From: a bacterium
GTDB taxonomy: Bacteria; Patescibacteriota; Minisyncoccia; Phycocordibacterales; CAIZIN01
Direction of reading: 5' to 3'
NCBI GenBank assembly: GCA_031409775.1
Contig: JANNXY010000034.1
Span: 1-63,426, forward strand
Length of the DNA: 63,426 bases
The notes beneath the pieces are model-generated. The model was not told the DNA's origin and made no database searches. It saw only the letters and a list, made by a program, of their open reading frames with translations. Positions 3,212 through 43,803 of the stretch are shown in pieces (the stretch's first letter is position 1; the number at the start of each line of letters is the position of its first letter). A program made the position numbers and the translations under genes.

Positions 3212-3601
3212 CTACAAAATCACATTCTCCATCCACTCTATTTTCTTGAGTTCGCTCTCCCCTGCTTGGTTTGTAGTGAGATACACGCAAGCCAGATCGA
3301 TCTGCCAGTCGGTGTCGTGGTATTGTCGGGTATTTTCCCCCAGGAATGTCTGGATAGTACGCTGGAGCTTGCGGATCTTGTCATAAGTCATATTCTCCTC
3401 AGCTCGAAATCTAGGATTCTCGACATATGTCACTGTTTTGACTTCTATGAAGTGAAGGTTGGTATTCCTATAAGCCACGATGTCGATCTCGCCCCATTTC
3501 TTGAGATAGTTTCTGGTGATAATTTCGTATCCCCTAGCCGTCAAGTCCTTGACCACGAAGTCCTCCCCAATATTCCCGAATTGTCTCTTTGATGAATACA
3601 T
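3212..3601 (-). CDS. yraN: YraN family (UPF0102) endonuclease-like protein
   Basis: GEDFVVKDLTARGYEIITRNY...GEIDIVA...HFIEVKT matches the YraN signature. Confidence 0.8.
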   Translation of the reverse strand: MYSSKRQFGNIGEDFVVKDLTARGYEIITRNYLKKWGEIDIVAYRNTNLHFIEVKTVTYVENPRFRAEENMTYDKIRKLQRTIQTFLGENTRQYHDTDWQIDLACVYLTTNQAGESELKKIEWMENVIL

Positions 3602-3837
3602 GATTGTTATATTATAAGGTTTATTTCAAATTTGGATATGTTTCACGTGAAAAGTAGTGGACATAACCTTGTAAAACCCAGGCTTATATTGTGTTAGCTG
3701 ACTTTTCCAAATAAGCCTTTAAATATAGGTTTCTAGACATATTAAGCAATTTATAGGGACAAATGGACAGGTTGACACTGTCTTTTAATACACACTATCC
3801 CCAGAGTTATCCACAACTTTGACAGCCTGTCTATCTG

Positions 3838-3908
3838 TGCGGCTAGGGAGAATCGAACTCCCGTCTAATCCTTGGCAAGGACTCGTTCTACCACTAAACT
3901 ATAGCCGC
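3838..3908 (-). tRNA. tRNA-Gly (anticodon GCC), no encoded CCA
   Basis: Hand-folded cloverleaf. Acceptor GCGGCTA/TAGCCGC, anticodon stem AGTCC/GGATT with loop TTGCCAA, T arm GGGAG-TTCGATT-CTCCC. Confidence 0.9.
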
Positions 3909-3947
3909 AATGCAAAAATTTTATCATATATGCTAATATGACGCTAG

Positions 3948-4019
3948 GCTCCTGTGGTGAAATGGATATCACAACGGTCTTCGGAACCGTTATTGAGGGT
4001 TCGAATCCTTCCGGGAGCA
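3948..4019 (+). tRNA. tRNA-Arg (anticodon TCG), no encoded CCA
   Basis: Hand-folded cloverleaf. Acceptor GCTCCTG/CGGGAGC, D stem GTGA/TCAC, anticodon stem ACGGT/ACCGT with loop CTTCGGA, T loop TTCGAAT. TGCTAATAT -10 box ends 8 nt before the 5' end. Confidence 0.9.
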
Positions 4020-4062
4020 CAAAAGTTCAGCAGAATTCTATGAGTGACCACAAAAAACTATT

Positions 4063-11710: not shown

Positions 11711-12508
11711 ATGGCAAACATACGAAGTATATTTATAAGAAATATGAGAGTGCAAAAGGGTTACTCCCAAGAAATGGTCGCCAAAGACCTCGGTATTTCT
11801 CGTGCGTCTTATATCAATATTGAAAGTGGGAAGAGGCAACTAGAACTCGAGGAAGCTGGCAACTTGGCTCGCATGTTTGAAATCTCAATTGAAGAATTAC
11901 TGCGGGGTAAAGTCGACGCAAAGGAAAAAATTTCATTGAGAAATGAAAGTTCAGAAAAAACCCCTAAGCAAAGCCGGGACGAAGAGAGAATTTCTGTACC
12001 CCAAGAAAAAGTAGACAAATTCAAGCAAGTTTTATTGTATATTTTGTCCAAAGTCGGAGGCAAGCCAAATATTGGCCAAACAGTATTGTATAAACTCCTG
12101 TATTTTATCGATTTTGATTATTATGAAAAATACGAGGAGCAGCTAATAGGGGCAAGATACATCAAGAATACGCACGGACCAACCCCTGTTATATTTTCAA
12201 AAATCACTGAAAACCTAGAATCACACGGTAAGATTGAGGCAATAAAAAGCAAATTCTACAAATATGACCAGACCAAATATCTCATAAATCCAGAATTAAA
12301 ACTTGATCTTTCTTCTCTATCTGCCCAAGAGCTGGCCCACATTGACTGGGAATTAGAAAGACTTTCTGATATGACAGCAAAAAAGATCTCTGATTTATCT
12401 CACAAAGACACCCCTTGGCGTATAGCAAATGATAAGGAGGTACTTAATTATAATTATGTTTTTTATCGCCCAGAAGAAACTTCTGTAAGAGAGTATGAGC
12501 CACTTTAA
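11711..12508 (+). CDS. XRE-HTH plus Panacea (DUF4065/SocA-like) domain antitoxin
   Basis: N-terminal XRE HTH (RVQKGYSQEMVAKDLGISRASYINIESGKR). C-terminal VLYKLLYFIDFDYY...THGPTP is typical of DUF4065/Panacea. 14-nt overlap with the next small ORF. Confidence 0.7.
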   Translation: MANIRSIFIRNMRVQKGYSQEMVAKDLGISRASYINIESGKRQLELEEAGNLARMFEISIEELLRGKVDAKEKISLRNESSEKTPKQSRDEERISVPQEKVDKFKQVLLYILSKVGGKPNIGQTVLYKLLYFIDFDYYEKYEEQLIGARYIKNTHGPTPVIFSKITENLESHGKIEAIKSKFYKYDQTKYLINPELKLDLSSLSAQELAHIDWELERLSDMTAKKISDLSHKDTPWRIANDKEVLNYNYVFYRPEETSVREYEPL

Positions 12509-14201: not shown

Positions 14202-14426
14202 ATGGAAAAATTGTTTAATCCCTGGAATGAAAACAAGAAATCCCTTCACGAAAATGAAGAGAATAAGTTCTATCTGGGTCAGGTTGATGGTAGGGATGCA
14301 ACTGCGATCCTGTCGCAGGCAAAAGTATTTGATACAAAAAGATTGATTAGAAAGGTAAGTAGGATTGATGAAGAGAAATTTAACTTATTGGTGGTCAAGC
14401 TAAAAGAAGTGTTGTTTGGGAAATAA
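14202..14426 (+). pseudogene. PemK/MazF-like gene with in-frame internal deletion
   Basis: Retains N-terminal (WNENKKSLHENEENKFY) and C-terminal (VDGRDATAILSQAKVFDTKRLIRKV...) blocks collinear with the intact paralog 37975-38355. The central roughly 50 aa core is missing. Confidence 0.6.
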
Positions 14427-14503
14427 TTTTGCCCCCACTTGTGGTGGAGGCGAGCCCGAAGGCATTTATACATACATATTACACCAAGCATTATAATTGT
14501 CAA
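14427..14503 (-). ncRNA. candidate minimal promoter-hairpin unit, convergent with the PemK-like remnant
   Basis: Minus strand: TTGACA (14498-14503)-N16-TAATAT (14476-14481), then GCC-UUCG-GGC and an 8-bp hairpin (14431-14451) abutting the stop codon. Confidence 0.35.
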
Positions 14504-28275: not shown

Positions 28276-30894
28276 ATGTCTAACGAACAACCTAGAAAAC
28301 CCAAGAAAAAAGATGTACATATTGCTGATTTGGTGGCTAGATTTGATAATCAAGATCATATGGAAGAGGAAAACGAGAGGATGGAGCGTTTTAGAAAACT
28401 AGAGAAAAAGCCATCTAAGGCAAGTAAAGAAACTAAGACTCAGGAAGAGTATTTAGATGACTTAGGCAGGGGACTGGAAAAAACAAAAAAGATAAGTGCT
28501 AATGCTAACGAAGCAATAAGAGATATTCACATGGCATTTAAAAAAATGAAGTTTGAAGACGAAACTGAGGACAACGCCCCAATTATTGATCCTGATGATT
28601 TGGAAAAAGCCAGTATAGAAATTAAAGAAAAAAACACAAAGGCAAGAGAGTTGTTTGATGATTTCAAAAAGCCCATCAACTTTACTCAGATCGATAAGGC
28701 AATGAGATTTGAGGGGTCGAGAAATGCTAAATTCATAGGCAACAGAGCTACCCCCCCGGCCGCCGAACCAGTTGAAACTGTGGTTGATGAGTGGGAAGAA
28801 AAGAGATTGGGAATGCTCCTACATCTTAGTGATTATATTAAAAGGGAGGAAGAATACATTAGTCGAGCACAAGGATTAATTGATTCTGATAAAGTCATCG
28901 GTACTTCGGTTACTAAGTTAGAAGAGGCGATAAGGGACTCAAAAAATGGTATAGTATCCTCCGCACGATTAGCTGAAATTACTGAAATGGATGCATCGGA
29001 GTATAAGTCATGGTTAGGGGAAGATAATAGTCCAAAAGATCCTGAACCAGTCATAGAACAAGCCCCTGCAGCAGAACCCGCCCCAGCTGAGCCGCCTCCG
29101 CTTCCGGATCCAGCTCTAGTAGAACCGCCCCCGCTTCCACCACCACTTCCTAAGCCCAAACCTCAGAAATCTCCCAAGAAACCCGTCGAACCACCACCTC
29201 TGCCAGTGTTCGACGAATACGCAAATCCAAATCCAAAACCACAACCAAAGAAGGTTAAAAATGAATACTTTGACCCATATACAGACGTATTAAATCCGCA
29301 ATGGAAAGTCGGAGGGGATTGGGAAAAGAAGGGGGAAGCGGCAGAGGCGATACACAAAGCAGCTGCAGATCTGCGGAAAAACGGTGTTGAAGAGGACAAA
29401 GTGAAGGCAATCGAGAAGCGAGAGGAAGAAAAGATGTGGGTACAAGAGAAGGAAGAAGCACAGAAGATGCTTGACGATGCTAGAGCTAGATTTGTAGCAG
29501 AACATCAAGCGGGGGAGAAGGCACACAAAGAGCGCCCAAGGCTCGAGAAGCTCAAAGACATGCTAAAGCTCACCGGACTTCGTAGAAGTCTCGGGTTCAA
29601 GGTAAAAGAAAAAGAACCTACCAATGAATTCAAATCTGCTCGCAAAGAATACGACATAGCCAAGAAGCGCTTCCAGAACGCAGAGTCGAACCTGATCCGT
29701 GGTAGGGAGGAGGGCAAGCCCGAGAAAGAGATCCAAGCACAGATAGCCAAGGAATTGTTGCTAAATGTCTCTGCCCGCGAATACAGCGAGCTCGCTAAAG
29801 CGAGGGTAGAAAATCTAACCCCAACAGAGAAGGGAAGTGTGAGGAAACTCCTCGATAGATATCGCAGAATGAGTCCAGGTACCAAGGTAATACTCACATC
29901 TACACTAATCACTGGTGTCACTCTAGTAGGGTTCGGTCCGGCAGTGGCTGCAGGTGTATTTACAGCTAGTGTGGGTAGGAAATTCCTCGCACTCGGATTG
30001 TCTACTGCTACAACAGCTGCCACCAAAGTATGGCTGGGTAATAAAAACGAAAAGGCAAGAATAGAAAAGCTTACCCAAGCCGAAGAAAGTTACTCTCCGA
30101 TAGGGGACATCAATACTTATGACACCATAGAGAACGAAGCAGAGACAAAGAGATTCAAAGCGGCACTATTGTCCGCAGGAGCAGGTGCAGCCGTAGCGCT
30201 CCTCATCACACTCACTGTCCGCGCAGAGGGACTCGACGATGCCCTAAGCAAGTCAGTGACAGATAAATTTATCCCAGACGAGAAAATACCTGGCGATGTT
30301 ATGCCGAAAGCCAGGATTGATATGAGATTGGAAAGGGATAATACGAGTGACACCGGAGCAAAACCTGTATTTACAAATGAAATAAAAGACTTCAAAGTTC
30401 ATGGCAAGGTGGTTAGTGACTCGGCAGAGCTATCATTGCGCAAGACCCTCGAAGGCAATGCAGAGAAATTCGGCTGGAAGCCAGAGTCCGGCATGACTGC
30501 TAGCAAATGGTCAGAGATCGAGATGGACAAATTTGCAAAAACAGAAGAAGGAGCAATGATTAGATATGCCCAGACTCATGATGGAAATAGGATAGTTGCA
30601 GAAGTTAAGCCCGAGGGGGGATTCACTGCTCGGGTAGAAGCAGGTGAGGGCAAGATGTATACATTCGATAAGAAGTTTGAGAAGCTGTTTGCCGAGAAGA
30701 AAACATTTGGCCCAGATGTGCCCGCGGTTAAATCCGTTGCTTGGAATGAATTGAATAAAATACCTAAAGCAAAACTATTGGATACCAAATTTTCTGTGCC
30801 AGAAATCATCCGCGAATACGCTCTGCGCGGCAAAGCAACACCAACTCAGGTCAGGGCATTTAGAGATCTAGTAATTAATAAAAAAATCGTATGA
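28276..30894 (+). CDS. large hypothetical membrane protein with proline-rich EPPPLP repeats
   Basis: 872 aa. K/E-rich N-terminus, Pro-rich tract (about 29041-29260), two to three TM segments, C-terminal globular part. Confidence 0.55.
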   Translation: MSNEQPRKPKKKDVHIADLVARFDNQDHMEEENERMERFRKLEKKPSKASKETKTQEEYLDDLGRGLEKTKKISANANEAIRDIHMAFKKMKFEDETEDNAPIIDPDDLEKASIEIKEKNTKARELFDDFKKPINFTQIDKAMRFEGSRNAKFIGNRATPPAAEPVETVVDEWEEKRLGMLLHLSDYIKREEEYISRAQGLIDSDKVIGTSVTKLEEAIRDSKNGIVSSARLAEITEMDASEYKSWLGEDNSPKDPEPVIEQAPAAEPAPAEPPPLPDPALVEPPPLPPPLPKPKPQKSPKKPVEPPPLPVFDEYANPNPKPQPKKVKNEYFDPYTDVLNPQWKVGGDWEKKGEAAEAIHKAAADLRKNGVEEDKVKAIEKREEEKMWVQEKEEAQKMLDDARARFVAEHQAGEKAHKERPRLEKLKDMLKLTGLRRSLGFKVKEKEPTNEFKSARKEYDIAKKRFQNAESNLIRGREEGKPEKEIQAQIAKELLLNVSAREYSELAKARVENLTPTEKGSVRKLLDRYRRMSPGTKVILTSTLITGVTLVGFGPAVAAGVFTASVGRKFLALGLSTATTAATKVWLGNKNEKARIEKLTQAEESYSPIGDINTYDTIENEAETKRFKAALLSAGAGAAVALLITLTVRAEGLDDALSKSVTDKFIPDEKIPGDVMPKARIDMRLERDNTSDTGAKPVFTNEIKDFKVHGKVVSDSAELSLRKTLEGNAEKFGWKPESGMTASKWSEIEMDKFAKTEEGAMIRYAQTHDGNRIVAEVKPEGGFTARVEAGEGKMYTFDKKFEKLFAEKKTFGPDVPAVKSVAWNELNKIPKAKLLDTKFSVPEIIREYALRGKATPTQVRAFRDLVINKKIV

Positions 30895-31202
30895 AGAAAA
30901 TCGCTGATATAAACTTGCTCAAGTCCCTCGGCCTCGATGCGCTACCTGTGGCAGACCAGGAAGCGATGCTTCTGCAGATAGGGGATGTGATATATGAATC
31001 GATCATATCGAGAGTCCTCGGTGAGCTCAAGTCGAAAGAAAAGACCGACCTCGACTATATGCTCACCCACAACCCGACTCCAGAGCAGATAGGCGAATTC
31101 ATGTCAGAGAAAGTTCCCCATATCGACCAAATAGCAACCGAAGAAATCGAAGCATTCAAATCCATCGCGCTAAAGAATCATAGGAAATTGGTGACAGCTT
31201 AA
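30891..31202 (+). CDS. hypothetical protein (103 aa)
   Basis: ORF overlaps the stop of the preceding gene by 4 nt (translationally coupled layout). Confidence 0.45.
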   Translation: MKKIADINLLKSLGLDALPVADQEAMLLQIGDVIYESIISRVLGELKSKEKTDLDYMLTHNPTPEQIGEFMSEKVPHIDQIATEEIEAFKSIALKNHRKLVTA

Positions 31203-36181: not shown

Positions 36182-37965
36182 GTATCTTTTTAATACTGAT
36201 TTTATTTGCAGCTACTCTGCAGGTTAATGCTCAGACCACATCTGTGAAGCCATCTACCAACGCACAAGTGCAAGGGTTTACTAACGGTGCTACAAGTGGT
36301 AATTCTTCTAACAATGCTTTCGGTAATGCTGCGGCAGATGCTGTTGGTTGTGGAGCAGGACAACTCGTAGCAGGGTTAGCCAGGAATGGTGTATCTGCGG
36401 TAGTAGGATCAGTCAAAGGCTCCGCAACGAACGCCATAACAAGCCAGCTCAATGTTACCCGCGTGCCAACACAGGATGCTGATACACCAGCTATCCGTGA
36501 CGACAATGCCAAGTCTACTGGCAAAGAAACAGGTGGAGGGTCACCGACACTTACAGGATCGGTAGCGGGTGCATTCGACCTACCGTCATGGGACTCGGTT
36601 GGATACTGTCTGGCGAATGCTGCTATCCACTATGTTACACAGTCGACAGTCAACTGGATCAACTCAGGCTTCAAGGGTAGCCCAGCGTTTGTAGACAACC
36701 CGGAACAGTTCTTCATAGGCATTGCGGACCAGGAGGCGGGAGGGTTTATCGAGGAGCTCGGTCTAGGGTTCCTATGTACAGAATTCTCGCCCAAAGTCCG
36801 CATCGCTCTGGTAAACGACTATATGAAGAGCACCAACGGTGTCCCGTACAAGAACCGCGCCTCCTGCACCATGACGAATGCTGTAAACAATGTGGAGAAA
36901 ATCTCTGCAGATTTCCAACGTGGTGACTTGAGCTCATATGTAGAATACGTAGGCAACCCAGCCAACCGTGCAGCATCATCCTACCTCATGGCACATGACG
37001 AGCTCAACAGACGTGTGAGTGTGAACCAGGGTAGGGCCAATTTCGAGTTACGCACGACAGACTTCCTTAGTTTCAAGAAATGCGAAGACGTAACCAACAA
37101 AACAACAGGTAAAACCGAGCAGAGGAATTGTCGCACATACGGCCCCGGCAAGGTTATCGAGGACGAGCTCAACAACGCCCTCGGTGCCAAATACGATCGT
37201 CTAGCTATTGCAGACGAGTTCGACGAAGTTGTAACAGCACTTATAAATCAGCTTATAAAGACAGCACTGAGCGAGGTTCTGTCAGATGACAGTGGCTCAT
37301 CTAACTCATCTAATGACAGATTCAAAACTGATTCAGATAGCAACTCGAACTCAAACACCAATTCAAATACGAACAACAACTCACAACCAACCACTGTAGT
37401 AGATGGATCGACAACCGGTGGAACCCCCACCGAGCGTGTGATCACAGCTACCTGTACAACAGATGTAGTAGCGAGCACCCAGGTAGGCAAGCCTGTTACA
37501 TTTACCGCTAGACCGCGTGGTGGAGCAGTGAACCAGGACTACACCTACGAATGGCTGGATGTTCCAGATGCCAGGCAACATACTACGGACAACCAGCTCG
37601 TAACGTATTTCCAGTCCCCAACCACAGCAACACTCATGCGTGTACGGGTTACATCTGCCGGCAAGCGTGCTATCGCCACATGCCCAACACTCACTATCGC
37701 TCCCGCTGACCCCATAGTAGCGAGCTGCAAACCCAGCACAACCAATGCCAAAAAGGTCACCGAAACAGTCACCTGGACAGCACAGGCTACAGGAGGCAAC
37801 GGTCAGTATGTATACAACTGGTCTGGCGAAGGTCTCGATAACAAGACCGGTTCATCCACAACAACGATATATGATACCAAAGGCGACAAGACTGCATTTG
37901 TCCAGGTTATCTCCGGTGCCGAATCCATCGATGTCACTTGCAGTGAGACGGTAAAGGTCAAGTAA
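36166..37965 (+). CDS. secreted protein with Ser/Asn linker and two C-terminal Ig/PKD-like repeats
   Basis: Signal peptide (LFAATLQVNAQ). DSDSNSNSNTNSNTNNNS linker. Two roughly 85-aa modules, each bracketed by Cys (TATCTTD...ATCPTL; ASCKPS...VTCSETV). Confidence 0.55.
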   Translation: MGKFLSIFLILILFAATLQVNAQTTSVKPSTNAQVQGFTNGATSGNSSNNAFGNAAADAVGCGAGQLVAGLARNGVSAVVGSVKGSATNAITSQLNVTRVPTQDADTPAIRDDNAKSTGKETGGGSPTLTGSVAGAFDLPSWDSVGYCLANAAIHYVTQSTVNWINSGFKGSPAFVDNPEQFFIGIADQEAGGFIEELGLGFLCTEFSPKVRIALVNDYMKSTNGVPYKNRASCTMTNAVNNVEKISADFQRGDLSSYVEYVGNPANRAASSYLMAHDELNRRVSVNQGRANFELRTTDFLSFKKCEDVTNKTTGKTEQRNCRTYGPGKVIEDELNNALGAKYDRLAIADEFDEVVTALINQLIKTALSEVLSDDSGSSNSSNDRFKTDSDSNSNSNTNSNTNNNSQPTTVVDGSTTGGTPTERVITATCTTDVVASTQVGKPVTFTARPRGGAVNQDYTYEWLDVPDARQHTTDNQLVTYFQSPTTATLMRVRVTSAGKRAIATCPTLTIAPADPIVASCKPSTTNAKKVTETVTWTAQATGGNGQYVYNWSGEGLDNKTGSSTTTIYDTKGDKTAFVQVISGAESIDVTCSETVKVK

Positions 37966-37974
37966 ATTCCCATT

Positions 37975-38355
37975 ATGAAAGACTTTGACACCTGGAACAA
38001 TCTTAAAAAGAATATAGATCTGATATCAACCACCGTATTCTGTAATAAAAGAGACGTTTGGTGGACCTCACTTGGACTAAACGTAGGTGTAGAAATAGAC
38101 GGAAAAGGTACAAATTTCGAAAGGCCATTTCTAATTATAAAGAAAATAAACAAACATTCTGTATTGGGGATACCACTCCTAAGCAATAAGCCTAAATTTG
38201 TAAATGCAATATCTGTAATTGCAGGGACCAAGGAATCTTTTGTTGTATTTAATCAGATCAAGGTTTTAAGTACGAAAAGACTACTGAGGAAAATTGGTAC
38301 GGTAAGCGAAGATGATTTTAAAAGAATCATTCAAGGACTTCAAGAATGGTTATAA
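37975..38355 (+). CDS. solitary PemK/MazF-like toxin-fold protein (intact copy)
   Basis: 126 aa. RDVWWTSLGLNVGVEIDGKG..FERPFLIIKK and QIKVLSTKRLLRKIG match the solitary PemK-like family. No adjacent protein antitoxin ORF. Confidence 0.65.
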   Translation: MKDFDTWNNLKKNIDLISTTVFCNKRDVWWTSLGLNVGVEIDGKGTNFERPFLIIKKINKHSVLGIPLLSNKPKFVNAISVIAGTKESFVVFNQIKVLSTKRLLRKIGTVSEDDFKRIIQGLQEWL

Positions 38356-38441
38356 ATGCGAAACCCCCTCGCAAGGAGGGGGAATCTCGGAGGCCGAAGC
38401 CATAATGTGTATATTATAGTCTCCAGTATAAATTAAGTCAA
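38356..38441 (-). ncRNA. candidate antisense small RNA unit, convergent with the PemK-like gene
   Basis: Minus strand: TTGACT (38436-38441)-N17-TATAAT (38413-38418), then GGC-UUCG-GCC, then CCCCCUCC-UUGC-GAGGGGG (38364-38382) plus UUUCGCAUUU, ending at the toxin stop codon. Confidence 0.4.
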
Positions 38442-38464
38442 TATACCCACCACCACCATCTACC

Positions 38465-38527
38465 CTCCACCTGTGAATTAAAATAGTATTTATCGCCGTT
38501 TTTCTGATACAATATATGCAATGAAAG
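38465..38527 (+). repeat. repeat copy A (promoter plus ATGAAA start)
   Basis: CTCCACCTGTGAATTAAAATAGTATTTATCGCCGTTTTTCTGATACAATATATGCAATGAAA. Differs from copy C at 3 positions. Confidence 0.9.
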
Positions 38528-39003
38528 ATACTATCGCCTATATCGATGCTTCTAACCTAAGGTTTGGAATTGAGCAAAGTAGCTGGGAAATGGACTATAA
38601 ATCATTTAGGTCTTGGCTACGTGATAAGTTTGGTGTAAATAAGGCAATACTATTTATGGGTTTGGTTCCTGAATATGCCGACCTGTATAATTCTCTCCAA
38701 AGTATGGGTTATGATATTTCATTTAAGCCTACAATTAAAGGCTACAATGGTAAAACCAAGGGGAATGTGGATGGTGAACTAATACTTCAAATTAGCAAAG
38801 ATTACTATGAAAGCAGTGCTGCTTCGGTAGTTCTAGTTTCTGGAGACGGGGATTATCACTGTATCGTAGAGTTTTTAAAGGAAAAAGGGGTTCCAGTTAC
38901 GATAATCTCCCCAAACGAAAAGTATTTATCGCTTTTGCTTAAAAGAACCAATGTTCCTATCGTTATACTTGATCAATTTAAAGAGAAACTAAAGAGGAAA
39001 TAG
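38521..39003 (+). CDS. NYN/LabA-like RNase-fold protein
   Basis: IAYIDASNLRFG ... VLVSGDGDYHCIVEFL. Uses the duplicated promoter and start of repeat copy A. Confidence 0.8.
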   Translation: MKDTIAYIDASNLRFGIEQSSWEMDYKSFRSWLRDKFGVNKAILFMGLVPEYADLYNSLQSMGYDISFKPTIKGYNGKTKGNVDGELILQISKDYYESSAASVVLVSGDGDYHCIVEFLKEKGVPVTIISPNEKYLSLLLKRTNVPIVILDQFKEKLKRK

Positions 39004-39097
39004 CCATAAATGAAAAGGCCCTCGGGTATGCCGTGACATACCAGAGGTCCTTTTCTTGTTTATACATACATAATATCAAACTTATTTCAGGTGTCAA
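39004..39097 (-). ncRNA. candidate promoter-hairpin unit, convergent with the NYN gene (includes a bidirectional terminator)
   Basis: Minus strand: TTGACA (39092-39097)-N16-TATTAT (39070-39075), GTATGTATAAA leader identical to the unit at 14466-14476, then an 18-bp imperfect hairpin (39013-39054) flanked by A/T runs. Confidence 0.4.
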
Positions 39098-39111: not shown

Positions 39112-39147
39112 CCCACCTGTGAATTAAAATAGTATTTATCGCCAGTT
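39112..39147 (+). repeat. repeat copy B (truncated)
   Basis: CCCACCTGTGAATTAAAATAGTATTTATCGCCAGTTTT. Ends at the stop codon of the minus-strand NYN gene. Confidence 0.85.
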
Positions 39148-39690
39148 TTAAGCCTTAAATAATTCCAGCTGATCATTTGATAACAAGATTCGATAGTCGC
39201 TTTCTTTGATCATACCGAGAGATGGCTCACTAGAAAATCCAACGTATTCTACAATTTTCCCTTTCGATCTAATGTACTTTACTGCCGGGATTAAATCTGT
39301 GTCAGAACTTACAATTACCGCAATATCGAAATTTTCCTCCACCGCACCAATCACCAAATCTATAGCTATTTGTACATCCACACCTTTTTCTCTAATTTTG
39401 TTATCGTAAACAATTCTTCCTCTTTTGACTTGGTAACCATCATTTTCTAAGCCGCTGAGGAGTTTCTGCTGGCTTTCCACCATCTTTTGACTTTTATCGC
39501 TCTTGTCATGGTTTCTCACTATACCAATGTAATAGTTTCTATAAATAACATTTCCGCCTCTAGCTAGAAACTTGGCAAATTTAATGTAATCAAATCTCGT
39601 CCCTTTGGCAAAAACCCCACTCTGCCTTATTCTCTGGTAGAAATTGCCGCCGTCAATAAATATTGCCACCTTCTTTCCTGAATTATCCAT
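39148..39690 (-). CDS. NYN/LabA-like RNase-fold protein
   Basis: VAIFIDGGNFYQR ... VIVSSDTDLIPAVKYI. TGTGATAAAAT ends 7 nt before the ATG. Confidence 0.85.
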   Translation of the reverse strand: MDNSGKKVAIFIDGGNFYQRIRQSGVFAKGTRFDYIKFAKFLARGGNVIYRNYYIGIVRNHDKSDKSQKMVESQQKLLSGLENDGYQVKRGRIVYDNKIREKGVDVQIAIDLVIGAVEENFDIAVIVSSDTDLIPAVKYIRSKGKIVEYVGFSSEPSLGMIKESDYRILLSNDQLELFKA

Positions 39691-43552: not shown

Positions 43553-43720
43553 ATGATTAAAAAATTTCTAGATTGGATTAAGCTAAAAGAAAATCTGCAC
43601 AATGTTTCTTCTCATATTCCATTCGTGAAGGAAAGGGATGTTTGGTGGTCAAGTATTGGTGAAAATATCGGATCAGAAATAAATGGAAAGAGTAAAGCAG
43701 GCTTTCTGGGAACTTTATAA
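43553..43720 (+). pseudogene. PemK/MazF-like gene remnant (N-terminal about 46 aa fused to the last few codons)
   Basis: MIKKFLDWIKLKENL...ERDVWWSSIGENIGSEINGKS is collinear with 37975-38355 and then ends. Its own TGTTAGAAT -10 box sits 6 nt before the ATG. Confidence 0.6.
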
Positions 43721-43803
43721 ATAAATATTCCCTCAGTTTCCCGAGGGCCGCGGCTAATGCCGAATGTAAGTAAAGTATACTATAATTACCAAAAGTTAGT
43801 CAA
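43721..43803 (-). ncRNA. candidate promoter-hairpin unit, convergent with the PemK-like remnant
   Basis: Minus strand: TTGACT (43798-43803)-N18-TATACT (43774-43779), then CCCUC-N8-GAGGG (43730-43747) followed by an A/U-rich tail. Confidence 0.3.

What the first reader, a model, noticed from the sequence alone, without database searches (positions are those of the whole stretch)
37975..38441. Solitary MazF/PemK-fold gene with a convergent near-consensus promoter plus terminator unit instead of a protein antitoxin
The intact 126-aa PemK-like ORF has no adjacent antitoxin ORF. Immediately 3' of it, on the opposite strand, lies TTGACT-N17-TATAAT. It is followed by about 50 nt containing a UUCG-capped hairpin (GGC-UUCG-GCC). 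An intrinsic terminator follows (CCCCCUCC-UUGC-GAGGGGG plus a U-rich tail), ending within 10 nt of the toxin stop codon. Nothing else lies downstream of this promoter except the antisense of the toxin gene. The same layout recurs at both decayed paralogs (14427-14503 and 43721-43803). Convergent 3'-overlapping antisense RNAs are known antitoxins for type I systems, and RNA antitoxins for a MazF-related fold are known in type III (ToxIN). A convergent mini-sRNA paired with a PemK-fold protein is neither arrangement and could be an undescribed TA variant. The unit also contains a possible 17-codon leaderless ORF (ATG at 38401, MASASEIPPPCEGVSHL).
Basis: partly seen in the sequence, partly recalled or inferred. 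Interest (0 to 1): 0.7.

Follow-up and report, generated by a model that had tools for sequence, protein, structure and literature searches.

The report
PemK toxin with convergent sRNA partner
A MazF/PemK-type RNA-cutting toxin gene is paired tail-to-tail with a tiny, strongly promoted two-hairpin RNA gene instead of a protein antitoxin; this pairing is conserved in hundreds of ultra-small (CPR) bacteria and resembles a little-known RNA-antitoxin system on a Campylobacter plasmid.

Summary
ORF 37975-38355 is a MazF/PemK-family protein with no neighbouring protein antitoxin. On the opposite strand a near-consensus promoter (38441-38413) drives a unit of about 55 nt: a UUCG hairpin, an invariant UCCGA linker, a GC-rich hairpin and a U tail that ends on the toxin stop codon.

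This is a conserved gene pair, not chance. All 79 homologous loci that have downstream sequence carry such a unit. The stems covary (98-99% paired, 0/500 shuffles) and the promoter sits at a fixed distance. No protein neighbour is conserved. About a sixth or more of the RNA genes have outlived their toxin.

The window holds three RNA classes (A, B, C). Classes A and B track PemK clades. Nothing in Rfam matches.

The layout is probably not wholly undescribed. A 33%-identical PemK on C. jejuni pVir has a Northern-verified convergent sRNA (CJpv3) ending 5 nt from its stop codon. pVir is also where the "type I" pair cjrA/cjpT was reported; that these are the same genes is likely but unverified.

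The best reading is an RNA-antitoxin module. The mode of action (cis-antisense or direct protein binding) is unresolved. The 17-codon ORF is rejected. The window's only "intact" toxin has Leu at the near-invariant catalytic Thr.

The parts
37975..38355 (+). MazF/PemK-family toxin gene, 126 aa, subfamily with an N-terminal KDFDxWNxxK helix. Has Leu69 where 78 of 81 relatives have the catalytic-position Thr.
   Evidence: Pfam PF02452 E=5.6e-11. PDB profile hits are all MazF, E about 1e-5. AF2 model pLDDT 80.5 and Foldseek top 50 all MazF. Residue counts.
38413..38441 (-). Promoter of sRNA A: -35 TTGACT (38441-38436), 17-nt spacer, -10 TATAAT (38418-38413).
   Evidence: 11/12 match. In 123 homologous RNAs, 88 have at least 10/12 matches, against 11 of 2000 control windows. 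The -10 ends 11-13 nt before hairpin 1 in 111 of 123.
38350..38406 (-). Class A small RNA, about 55 nt. Leader ACAUUAU; hairpin 1 GGC-UUCG-GCC (38401-38392); invariant linker UCCGA (38391-38387); hairpin 2 (38386-38360); U-rich tail overlapping the pemK stop codon (38353-38355).
   Evidence: R1 hit 38348-38408, 55.7 bits (the window was in the seed). Covariation. Fold -21.4 kcal/mol, z=-2.4.
14202..14426 (+). Decayed pemK paralog B: N- and C-terminal parts kept, core deleted.
   Evidence: ORF list. Its best BLAST hits are all PemKs that carry class B RNAs.
14417..14503 (-). Class B sRNA gene. Promoter -35 TTGACA 14503-14498, -10 TAATAT 14481-14476. RNA about 14470-14417: GCC-UUCG-GGC, linker UC, hairpin GCCUCCAC/GUGGGGGC, AAA tail over the remnant's stop codon.
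   Evidence: R1 23.2 bits. 13 class B instances with promoters. Covariation 98% paired, 0/500 shuffles for percentage paired and covariation score. Fold z=-3.2.
43553..43720 (+). Decayed pemK paralog C: N-terminal 55 aa only.
   Evidence: ORF list. BLAST to family members E about 1e-11.
43716..43803 (-). Class C sRNA gene. Promoter -35 TTGACT 43803-43798, 18-nt spacer, -10 TATACT 43779-43774. RNA about 43767-43716: CGGC-AUUA-GCCG, linker CG, hairpin GCCCUC/GAGGG, U-rich tail over the remnant's stop codon.
   Evidence: Sequence. Three further class C instances (L052, L067, L074) with a covarying hairpin 1. Fold z=-3.3.

Best explanation
This is a two-gene toxin-antitoxin-like module. The toxin is a MazF/PemK-family endoribonuclease. 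Its only conserved partner is a constitutively and strongly transcribed two-hairpin RNA of about 50-55 nt. The RNA gene lies tail-to-tail with the toxin gene, so the RNA's 3' end lies on the toxin stop codon.

**Shown:**
- the RNA gene is real and conserved (promoter, covarying stems, strand);
- it is tied to this PemK subfamily in both search directions;
- no protein partner is conserved;
- RNA genes persist after the toxin decays.

**Inferred:** the RNA is the antitoxin (about 0.7).

**Inferred more weakly:** it acts as a cis-antisense RNA (about 0.5 of the total). The toxin transcript has no evident terminator of its own, so it probably reads through the RNA gene. The sRNA would then pair with the 3' end of the toxin mRNA, from the stop codon onwards or over the last codons. 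That would lead to cleavage or decay of the message, or to failed termination. This is type I-like logic applied to a large RNase toxin. An RNA-antitoxin pair on C. jejuni pVir, which probably includes the PemK relative found there, was reported as type I.

In this window the three copies are at three stages of toxin loss: a substitution at the catalytic Thr position, an internal deletion, and a truncation. All three RNA genes are intact.
For: **RNA gene is real.**
- Seed alignment of 28 sequences: 12 pairs, 98.2% paired, 9 pairs with double changes, 0/500 shuffles reaching the observed pairing or covariation score, and slid controls collapse.
- Independent metagenome set of 76 sequences: 99.3% paired, 149 compensatory cells.
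- About 30 G.U cells in that set would be C.A on the other strand, which fixes the strand.
- The promoter is conserved at a fixed distance.

**Association with PemK.**
- R1 hits abut the pemK stop codon in 68 loci at E<=1e-4 and in 76 at E<=1. The other 3 loci with downstream sequence have variant units.
- In the reverse direction, 63 of 81 pattern matches that have hairpin 2 sit next to a convergent pemK. None of 41 chance matches do.

**No protein partner.** Upstream ORFs range from 55 to 989 aa, and the largest cluster is 3 of 80. No small-ORF cluster exists.

**Asymmetry.** In the RNA-selected set, 12 of 73 have no pemK and 13 have only a partial one.

**Class tracks clade.** Nearest-neighbour concordance between RNA class and PemK clade is 71/71.

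**Geometry.**
- The stop codon lies 3-9 nt after hairpin 2 in 68 of 109 loci. In 31 of 109 the ORF reads through the RNA gene.
- The same geometry occurs on Campylobacterota plasmids. On pVir the sRNA CJpv3 is Northern-verified, 31119->31043, against the PemK CDS 30634-31038.
- cjrA is reported as a type I RNA antitoxin on pVir.
- An unrelated RNase gene (NYN) shows the same convergent layout in 5 of 5 cases. This favours a mechanism that depends on geometry rather than on the protein.
Against: - There is no expression or toxicity data for any CPR member.
- I could not read Shen et al. 2016, so I cannot confirm that cjpT is the PemK homolog. CJpv2 and a small ORF on pVir are an alternative.
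- A cis-antisense RNA needs no conserved primary sequence. Yet the single-stranded linker UCCGA, the closing G-C pair and hairpin 1 are invariant or nearly so across proteins only about 40% identical. This points to recognition by a protein.
- The UUCG tetraloop is a poor kissing loop.
- There is no cognate-specific pairing with the toxin 5' region.
- Intact orphan RNAs imply action in trans.
- The window's own toxin may be inactive (L69).
Confidence: 0.6

Rival explanations
1. Type III-like mechanism. The folded RNA binds the PemK dimer directly and blocks its RNA groove. The invariant single-stranded UCCGA, held between two hairpins, would act as a pseudo-substrate, or as a cleaved and retained substrate. 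The tail-to-tail gene arrangement would then serve only tight linkage and a shared terminator.
For: - C-UCCGAG...CG is invariant in 40 of 40 aligned RNAs, while both stems covary.
- RNA classes A and B track PemK clades.
- A subfamily-specific, invariant N-terminal helix (K2 D3 F4 D5 W7 N8 K11) is absent from the solved MazFs.
- Structurally intact orphan RNAs and occasional tandem RNA copies fit action in trans on a protein.
- There is no 5'-region pairing signal.
Against: - The strict convergent geometry ending at the stop codon holds across all RNA classes, across phyla, and for an unrelated NYN gene. A protein-binding model does not require it.
- Agreement between RNA class and protein clade is expected from simple linkage.
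- The RNA is a single unit with its own promoter and terminator, not a processed repeat array.
- An RNA-antitoxin pair on pVir, probably including the PemK relative, was classed by its authors as type I.
Confidence: 0.27
2. Not an antitoxin. Hairpin 2 is simply a shared bidirectional terminator, and the promoter gives a short antisense or insulator transcript. This transcript would limit read-through or transcriptional interference around a gene often embedded in unrelated operons.
For: In many copies hairpin 2 has an A-tract/U-tract lower stem (GAAA...UUUC), as bidirectional terminators do. pemK often lies 1-40 nt after unrelated upstream genes.
Against: This does not explain the invariant linker and hairpin 1, the near-consensus promoter at a fixed distance, the exclusive association with one toxin subfamily, or the retention of the RNA after toxin loss. 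About a third of the RNAs have a GGAC/GUCC lower stem, so the plus strand has no U-tract.
Confidence: 0.08
3. A DNA-level element such as a recombination site or cassette end (attC-like), or a small leaderless peptide gene (MASASEIPPPCEGVSHL).
For: The element sits at the 3' end of a small, apparently mobile gene, and its structure is more conserved than its sequence in stem 2. An ATG is present in the window copy. The neighbouring NYN cassette is flanked by a 37-nt direct repeat.
Against: - A sigma-70-type promoter lies at a fixed distance in 90% of copies.
- G.U pairs are specific to one strand.
- The tail is U-rich.
- 78 of 126 copies lack the ATG, ORF length ranges from 2 to 49 codons, and indels are not multiples of 3.
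Confidence: 0.03

Closest known systems
PemK/MazF homolog + sRNA CJpv3 on Campylobacter jejuni 81-176 plasmid pVir. Probably the cjrA (RNA antitoxin) / cjpT (protein toxin) 'type I' pair of Shen et al. 2016, Mol Microbiol 101:909.
   Same: - The toxin is a homolog: 33% identity, E=1e-15, with the same N-terminal FDxWNxxKK motif.
- It is the only annotated toxin on pVir.
- A 77-nt sRNA detected by dRNA-seq and Northern blot is transcribed convergently and ends 5 nt after the stop codon.
- It has its own -10/-35 promoter and a terminal GC hairpin.
- No protein antitoxin is present.
   Different: - The RNA has three hairpins and no detectable sequence or structure homology to the CPR RNAs. R1 finds nothing.
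- It is on a plasmid in Campylobacterota, not on a chromosome in CPR.
- I infer that cjpT/cjrA are these two genes but could not check the paper.
Type I toxin-antitoxin systems with convergent, 3'-overlapping antisense RNAs (txpA/RatA, bsrG/SR4, par/Fst of pAD1). Listed from knowledge.
   Same: The RNA has its own strong promoter, is transcribed convergently, overlaps at the 3' end, and shares or abuts a terminator hairpin. No protein antitoxin is present.
   Different: Those toxins are hydrophobic peptides under 60 aa. Here the toxin is a 126-aa MazF-fold RNase. The overlap with the coding region is only the stop codon in about two thirds of loci. The RNA has an invariant single-stranded motif that antisense action does not need.
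Type III toxin-antitoxin systems (ToxIN, CptIN, TenpIN).
   Same: The toxin is an endoRNase of a fold related to Kid/MazF. A structured RNA is the only partner. Multiple specificity classes exist.
   Different: The toxin is true MazF/PemK, not ToxN/AbiQ. The RNA is a single unit with its own promoter and terminator, downstream and convergent. It is not a tandem repeat array upstream in the same operon.
Canonical type II MazEF/PemIK.
   Same: Toxin family and fold. The catalytic Arg (R50 in RP) and, in relatives, the Thr are conserved.
   Different: No MazE/PemI gene is present. The protein has an extra conserved N-terminal helix. RefSeq's label 'type II' for the Campylobacter homologs appears to be annotation by family name only.

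Membership tests
MazF/PemK toxin family (Pfam PF02452) | Profile match above the curated cut-off | tested here: met
   43.0 bits against a cut-off of 23.1, E=5.6e-11, full-length domain. NCBIfam models gave no hit.
MazF/PemK toxin family (Pfam PF02452) | MazF/Kid SH3-like barrel fold | tested here: met
   AF2 model pLDDT 80.5. Foldseek PDB top 50 are all MazF, TM 0.60-0.77.
MazF/PemK toxin family (Pfam PF02452) | Catalytic Arg (RP motif) and Thr (B. subtilis MazF R25/T48) | tested here: inconclusive
   R50 is present and invariant. The Thr-equivalent is Leu69 in the window copy, while 78 of 81 relatives have Thr. The family meets the feature, but the window copy may be attenuated.
Type II MazEF/PemIK module | Adjacent co-transcribed protein antitoxin (MazE/PemI) | tested here: not met
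   No antitoxin-sized ORF in the window. No conserved neighbouring ORF in 80 loci.
Type I TA system | Antitoxin is an RNA from its own promoter, antisense to the toxin transcript | tested here: met
   Met at sequence level. The promoter is convergent, the RNA ends on the stop codon, and in 31 of 109 loci the toxin ORF spans the whole RNA gene. Transcription was not observed here.
Type I TA system | Toxin is a small hydrophobic membrane peptide (typical, with exceptions such as SymE and RalR) | tested here: not met
   126-aa soluble MazF fold.
Type I TA system | RNA-mRNA duplex blocks translation or triggers decay | not testable with these tools
   The only test possible was a negative one: no cognate-specific pairing with the toxin 5' region. 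3' complementarity follows automatically from the gene arrangement.
Type III TA system (ToxIN/CptIN/TenpIN) | ToxN/AbiQ-type toxin | tested here: not met
   The Pfam hit is PemK, not ToxN. No ToxN among the top 50 structural matches. No PADLOC hit.
Type III TA system (ToxIN/CptIN/TenpIN) | Antitoxin is a tandem array of direct repeats upstream of the toxin, separated from it by a terminator | tested here: not met
   The RNA is a single unit, downstream and convergent. Rare two-copy tandems exist (L023, L003, L001); in L023 each copy has its own promoter, in L003 only the first does, and L001 was not inspected.
Type III TA system (ToxIN/CptIN/TenpIN) | RNA binds and inhibits the toxin protein | not testable with these tools
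   Only indirect hints: the invariant linker and the agreement between RNA class and protein clade.
cjrA/cjpT-like (C. jejuni pVir) | Homologous toxin with a convergent sRNA ending at its stop codon | tested here: met
   33% identity, E=1e-15. CJpv3 at 31119->31043 against the CDS end at 31038.
cjrA/cjpT-like (C. jejuni pVir) | Homologous RNA | tested here: not met
   R1 with filters off gives no hit at the pVir, Nitratiruptor, H. suis or L. salivarius loci.
cjrA/cjpT-like (C. jejuni pVir) | cjpT is the PemK gene and cjrA is CJpv3 | not testable with these tools
   The paper is not held. Citing papers give only 'antisense sRNA, type I, pVir'. An alternative candidate is the CJpv2 region.
Any Rfam family | Covariance-model match | tested here: not met
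   Nothing at gathering score in the window or in 20 loci. Nothing relevant at E<=10 in 37800-38600.

The most novel reading that the evidence does not exclude
A true MazF-family toxin is neutralised at the protein level by a single-unit, self-terminated two-hairpin RNA. The invariant UCCGA linker of this RNA would occupy the nuclease groove. That would be a new RNA-antitoxin class for the best-studied type II toxin family. It would be widespread in CPR bacteria (at least 500 loci) and part of a wider habit of pairing RNase toxins (MazF-like, NYN) with convergent mini-sRNAs.
Probability: 0.27. Interest if true: 0.8.

Novelty: new variant of a known kind. Interest (0 to 1): 0.6.

Why it matters
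MazF/PemK is the textbook type II toxin. Databases label every family member as type II, including the Campylobacter homologs. This analysis shows that a whole subfamily has an RNA as its only conserved partner. At least 511 confirmed loci were found among GTDB species genomes, nearly all in Patescibacteria.

Consequences:
- It adds three or more RNA families that Rfam lacks.
- It gives CPR bacteria, which have almost no characterised sRNAs, a clear and testable one.
- It links an obscure plasmid-stability system in Campylobacter to a large environmental family.
- A single experiment, trans-rescue without complementarity, would decide whether MazF can be controlled like a type I or a type III toxin.

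The NYN neighbour suggests the design is general for RNase toxins in these genomes.

Tried and rejected
- **Rfam.** Gathering-score scan of the window, E<=10 scan of the region, and gathering-score scan of 20 loci. No family matched.
- **'pemK RNA motif'.** I recalled a motif of this name from Weinberg 2017. It is not mentioned in the main text, no supplement is held, and no Rfam hit appeared.
- **Literature.** Searches for MazF/PemK with an RNA antitoxin in CPR found nothing. A 2021 review of RNA-regulated TA systems mentions neither Campylobacter nor PemK, and MazF only in its reference list.
- **Shen et al. 2016.** The paper is not held. Supplements of a citing paper contain no cjrA. Cluster names give only 'type II PemK/MazF'.
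- **Trans pairing.** sRNA against the pemK 5' region: cognate -16.9 and non-cognate -17.4 kcal/mol, p=0.75. Rejected.
- **Conserved protein partner.** Upstream ORFs, small ORFs and the NYN neighbour (3 of 80) were all rejected.
- **Small peptide.** Rejected.
- **Phage origin.** No relatives in IMG/VR.
- **Defence-system models.** No PADLOC hit.
- **Extra R1 hit.** The weak hit at window 12011-12073 (E about 1.4) lies inside a coding region with no promoter or hairpin 2. Treated as chance.
- **Raw metagenome matches.** Half of the 18-mer pattern matches were chance hits in GC-rich coding DNA and were filtered out by requiring hairpin 2.

Full report
**What is in the window**

ORF 37975-38355 (+) encodes a 126-aa protein that matches Pfam PemK_toxin over its whole domain (E=5.6e-11). 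A family profile hits only MazF proteins among solved structures. The AlphaFold model (pLDDT 80.5) matches MazF structures in all top 50 Foldseek hits.

The upstream gene, 599 aa, ends 10 nt before the start codon. The next gene downstream is an NYN-domain gene. No antitoxin-sized ORF exists.

The minus strand carries, in order:
- TTGACT-N17-TATAAT at 38441->38413, matching 11 of 12 positions;
- ACAUUAU-GGCUUCGGCC-UCCGA-G AUU CCCCCUC CUUGC GAGGGGG UUU C-GCAUUUAU.

The last U's of this RNA are the complement of the toxin's TAA. The simple terminator scan does not call the second hairpin because its tail has only 4 T in 8.

**Is it more than chance?**

A scan of one genome per GTDB species for relatives of the protein returned 511 confirmed loci. 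I kept the best 80, almost all of them Patescibacteria/CPR MAGs. Reading the strand opposite each gene's 3' end showed the same unit again and again.

An alignment of 40 units has C-UCCGAG...CG invariant, while both stems vary. Evidence for the two-hairpin structure:
- On a 28-sequence alignment, 98.2% of cells pair, 9 of 12 pairs show double changes, 0/500 shuffles reach the observed pairing or covariation score, and slid controls collapse.
- A covariance model (R1) finds a minus-strand match abutting the pemK stop codon in 68 loci at E<=1e-4 and in 76 at E<=1.
- Of the other four loci, one has no downstream sequence and three have variant two-hairpin units with good promoters.
- An independent set, fetched from metagenomes by an 18-nt RNA pattern, gives 99.3% pairing and 149 compensatory cells in stem 2.
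- About 30 G.U cells in that set would be C.A mismatches on the other strand. Together with the promoter and U tail, this fixes the transcribed strand.

**Promoter and geometry**

In 123 non-identical RNAs, 88 have at least 10 of 12 matches to TTGACA-N16-18-TATAAT. Only 11 of 2000 control windows do. The -10 ends 11-13 nt before hairpin 1 in 111 of 123.

The complement of the pemK stop codon lies 3-9 nt after hairpin 2 in 68 of 109 loci. In 31 of 109 there is no stop codon there, and the toxin ORF runs antisense through the whole RNA gene, giving a C-terminus of ...KIENPLTGAFSEAEATN.

**Association in both directions**

- Starting from the protein, every locus with downstream sequence has an RNA unit.
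- Starting from the RNA pattern, 63 of 81 matches that have hairpin 2 lie next to a convergent pemK. None of 41 chance matches in GC-rich coding DNA do.
- Among RNA-selected loci with room for a gene, 48 have an intact pemK, 13 a partial one and 12 none.
- So the toxin never occurs without the RNA, but the RNA often occurs without an intact toxin. This is the pattern expected of an antitoxin.
- No neighbouring protein is conserved. Upstream ORFs range from 55 to 989 aa and the largest BLAST cluster is 3 of 80. No small-ORF family exists. NYN neighbours occur in 3 of 80 loci.

**RNA classes**

| Class | Defining features | Instances |
|---|---|---|
| A | UCCGA linker, long hairpin 2 | 57 of the 80 loci by motif pattern (more by model R1) |
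| B | same hairpin 1, linker UC, hairpin GCC...GGC, AAA tail | 13, stems covary |
| C | CGGC-AUUA-GCCG, linker CG | 4, hairpin 1 covaries |

RNA class follows the PemK tree. Nearest-neighbour concordance is 71/71, and class B is a single clade.

The window's two 'decayed paralogs' carry intact class B (14417-14503) and class C (43716-43803) RNA genes. They are not decayed copies of class A. The best hits of remnant B are all class B toxins. All three window RNAs fold as two hairpins.

**The toxin itself**

The catalytic Arg (R50, in the RP motif) is invariant. The near-invariant Thr aligns with the catalytic Thr of the solved MazF structures (T48 in B. subtilis MazF numbering, from knowledge). 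It is Thr in 78 of 81 relatives but Leu (CTA) in the window's gene, the only such case. All three copies in this window may therefore be toxin-defective to different degrees while keeping their RNA genes.

**Precedent**

tblastn against plasmids finds homologs at 31-36% identity on Campylobacter, Helicobacter, Nitratiruptor and Ligilactobacillus plasmids, annotated 'type II ... PemK/MazF'.
- On C. jejuni 81-176 pVir the gene is at 30634-31038 (+) and is the only annotated toxin.
- Dugar et al. 2013 list sRNA CJpv3 on pVir: minus strand, 31119->31043, 77 nt, detected on a Northern blot (PMC3656092 Table S12). It is convergent and ends 5 nt after that stop codon.
- The DNA shows TTGATT-N17-TATAAT and a terminal GC hairpin.
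- The Nitratiruptor and H. suis homologs show the same layout, with two and three hairpins.
- Two papers cite Shen et al. 2016 for an antisense sRNA, CjrA, as the antitoxin of a type I system on pVir (PMC7826846, PMC10470494).
- I could not read that paper. The identification cjpT = PemK homolog and cjrA = CJpv3 is my inference. The alternative is CJpv2, opposite a 35-aa ORF.
- R1 does not recognise these RNAs. The architecture is shared; the RNA sequences are not.

**Mechanism**

That the RNA is the functional partner and antitoxin is a strong inference. How it acts is open.

For cis-antisense (type I-like) action:
- the strictly conserved tail-to-tail geometry holds across RNA classes and phyla;
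- some toxin ORFs span the whole RNA gene;
- no plus-strand terminator is evident, so the mRNA should carry the RNA's complement;
- the authors of the pVir study classed their RNA-antitoxin pair as type I;
- the unrelated NYN RNase gene next door, and 4 of 4 of its homologs in hand, have the same convergent promoter-hairpin unit ending at their stop codon. This argues for a mechanism that depends on geometry rather than on the protein.

For direct protein binding (type III-like):
- the invariant single-stranded linker and hairpin 1 have no role in cis-antisense pairing;
- the UUCG loop is a poor kissing loop;
- orphan RNAs keep intact structure;
- the subfamily has its own invariant N-terminal helix.

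No cognate-specific pairing with the toxin 5' region exists. I put antisense at about 0.5, protein binding at about 0.27, and non-antitoxin readings at about 0.1.

**Rejected readings**

- The 17-codon ORF is rejected.
- A phage origin is not supported.
- No defence-system model matches.

**Verdict**

It is best filed as an RNA-antitoxin module with a MazF/PemK toxin. It is a variant of known RNA-antitoxin logic with a probable characterised relative in Campylobacter. The RNA families are new, the CPR distribution is large and previously unrecognised, and the mode of action is unresolved but testable.

Noticed in passing
window 38521-39003 (+) and 39006-39097 (-): The neighbouring NYN-domain gene also has a convergent near-consensus promoter (TTGACA-N16-TATTAT, TG-extended). 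It drives an RNA of about 60 nt with a long hairpin and a U tail that ends about 3 nt from the NYN stop codon. All four NYN1 homologs in fetched loci (L110, L134, L156, L049) have the same layout, with a shared ACGAAAGRG-like motif. In L110 and L156 an 'orphan' class A RNA sits directly upstream of it. Convergent mini-sRNAs may be a general partner of RNase toxins in CPR genomes.
   Followed up: partly
window 38467-38503 and 39113-39149: A 37-nt direct repeat (95% identical, spacing 646 nt) brackets the NYN gene plus its convergent sRNA unit. This looks like the footprint of a cassette insertion or duplication.
   Followed up: partly
window 38179-38181 (codon 69 of the PemK ORF): CTA (Leu) where 78 of 81 relatives have Thr, the position aligned to the catalytic Thr of MazF (T48 in B. 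subtilis numbering). The 'intact' toxin may be attenuated.
   Followed up: yes
L001, L005, L009, L014, L015, L020, L028, L029, L035, L039, L047, L069, L080 (about 3375-3480): In 31 of 109 loci the pemK ORF lacks the usual stop codon and is read antisense through the entire sRNA gene, adding 25-30 residues (...KIENPLTGAFSEAEATN). If the transcript ends at the shared hairpin it would be a non-stop mRNA.
   Followed up: partly
L023:3375-3526, L003:3374-3499, L001:3379-3531: Two class A RNA units lie in tandem downstream of one pemK. In L023 each has its own promoter and terminator. In L003 the first lacks a proper hairpin 2 and the second lacks a promoter. L001 was not inspected.
   Followed up: partly
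L074:2886-2935 and 3396-3457: A decayed pemK with an intact class C RNA lies immediately upstream of an intact pemK with a class A RNA. This is the same 'RNA outlives toxin' pattern as in the window.
   Followed up: partly
L205 (Ligilactobacillus salivarius plasmid, 568-1017): A PemK homolog (31% identity) lies directly after a DUF3800 gene, with no clear convergent promoter-hairpin unit downstream. The RNA partnership may not extend to Firmicutes members.
   Followed up: no
window 39148-39690 (-): A second NYN-domain gene, convergent with the first, with no recognisable convergent sRNA unit of its own.
   Followed up: no
window 3837-4020: Divergent tRNA-Gly(GCC) and tRNA-Arg(TCG) genes. These are the only Rfam hits in the window.
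   Followed up: no
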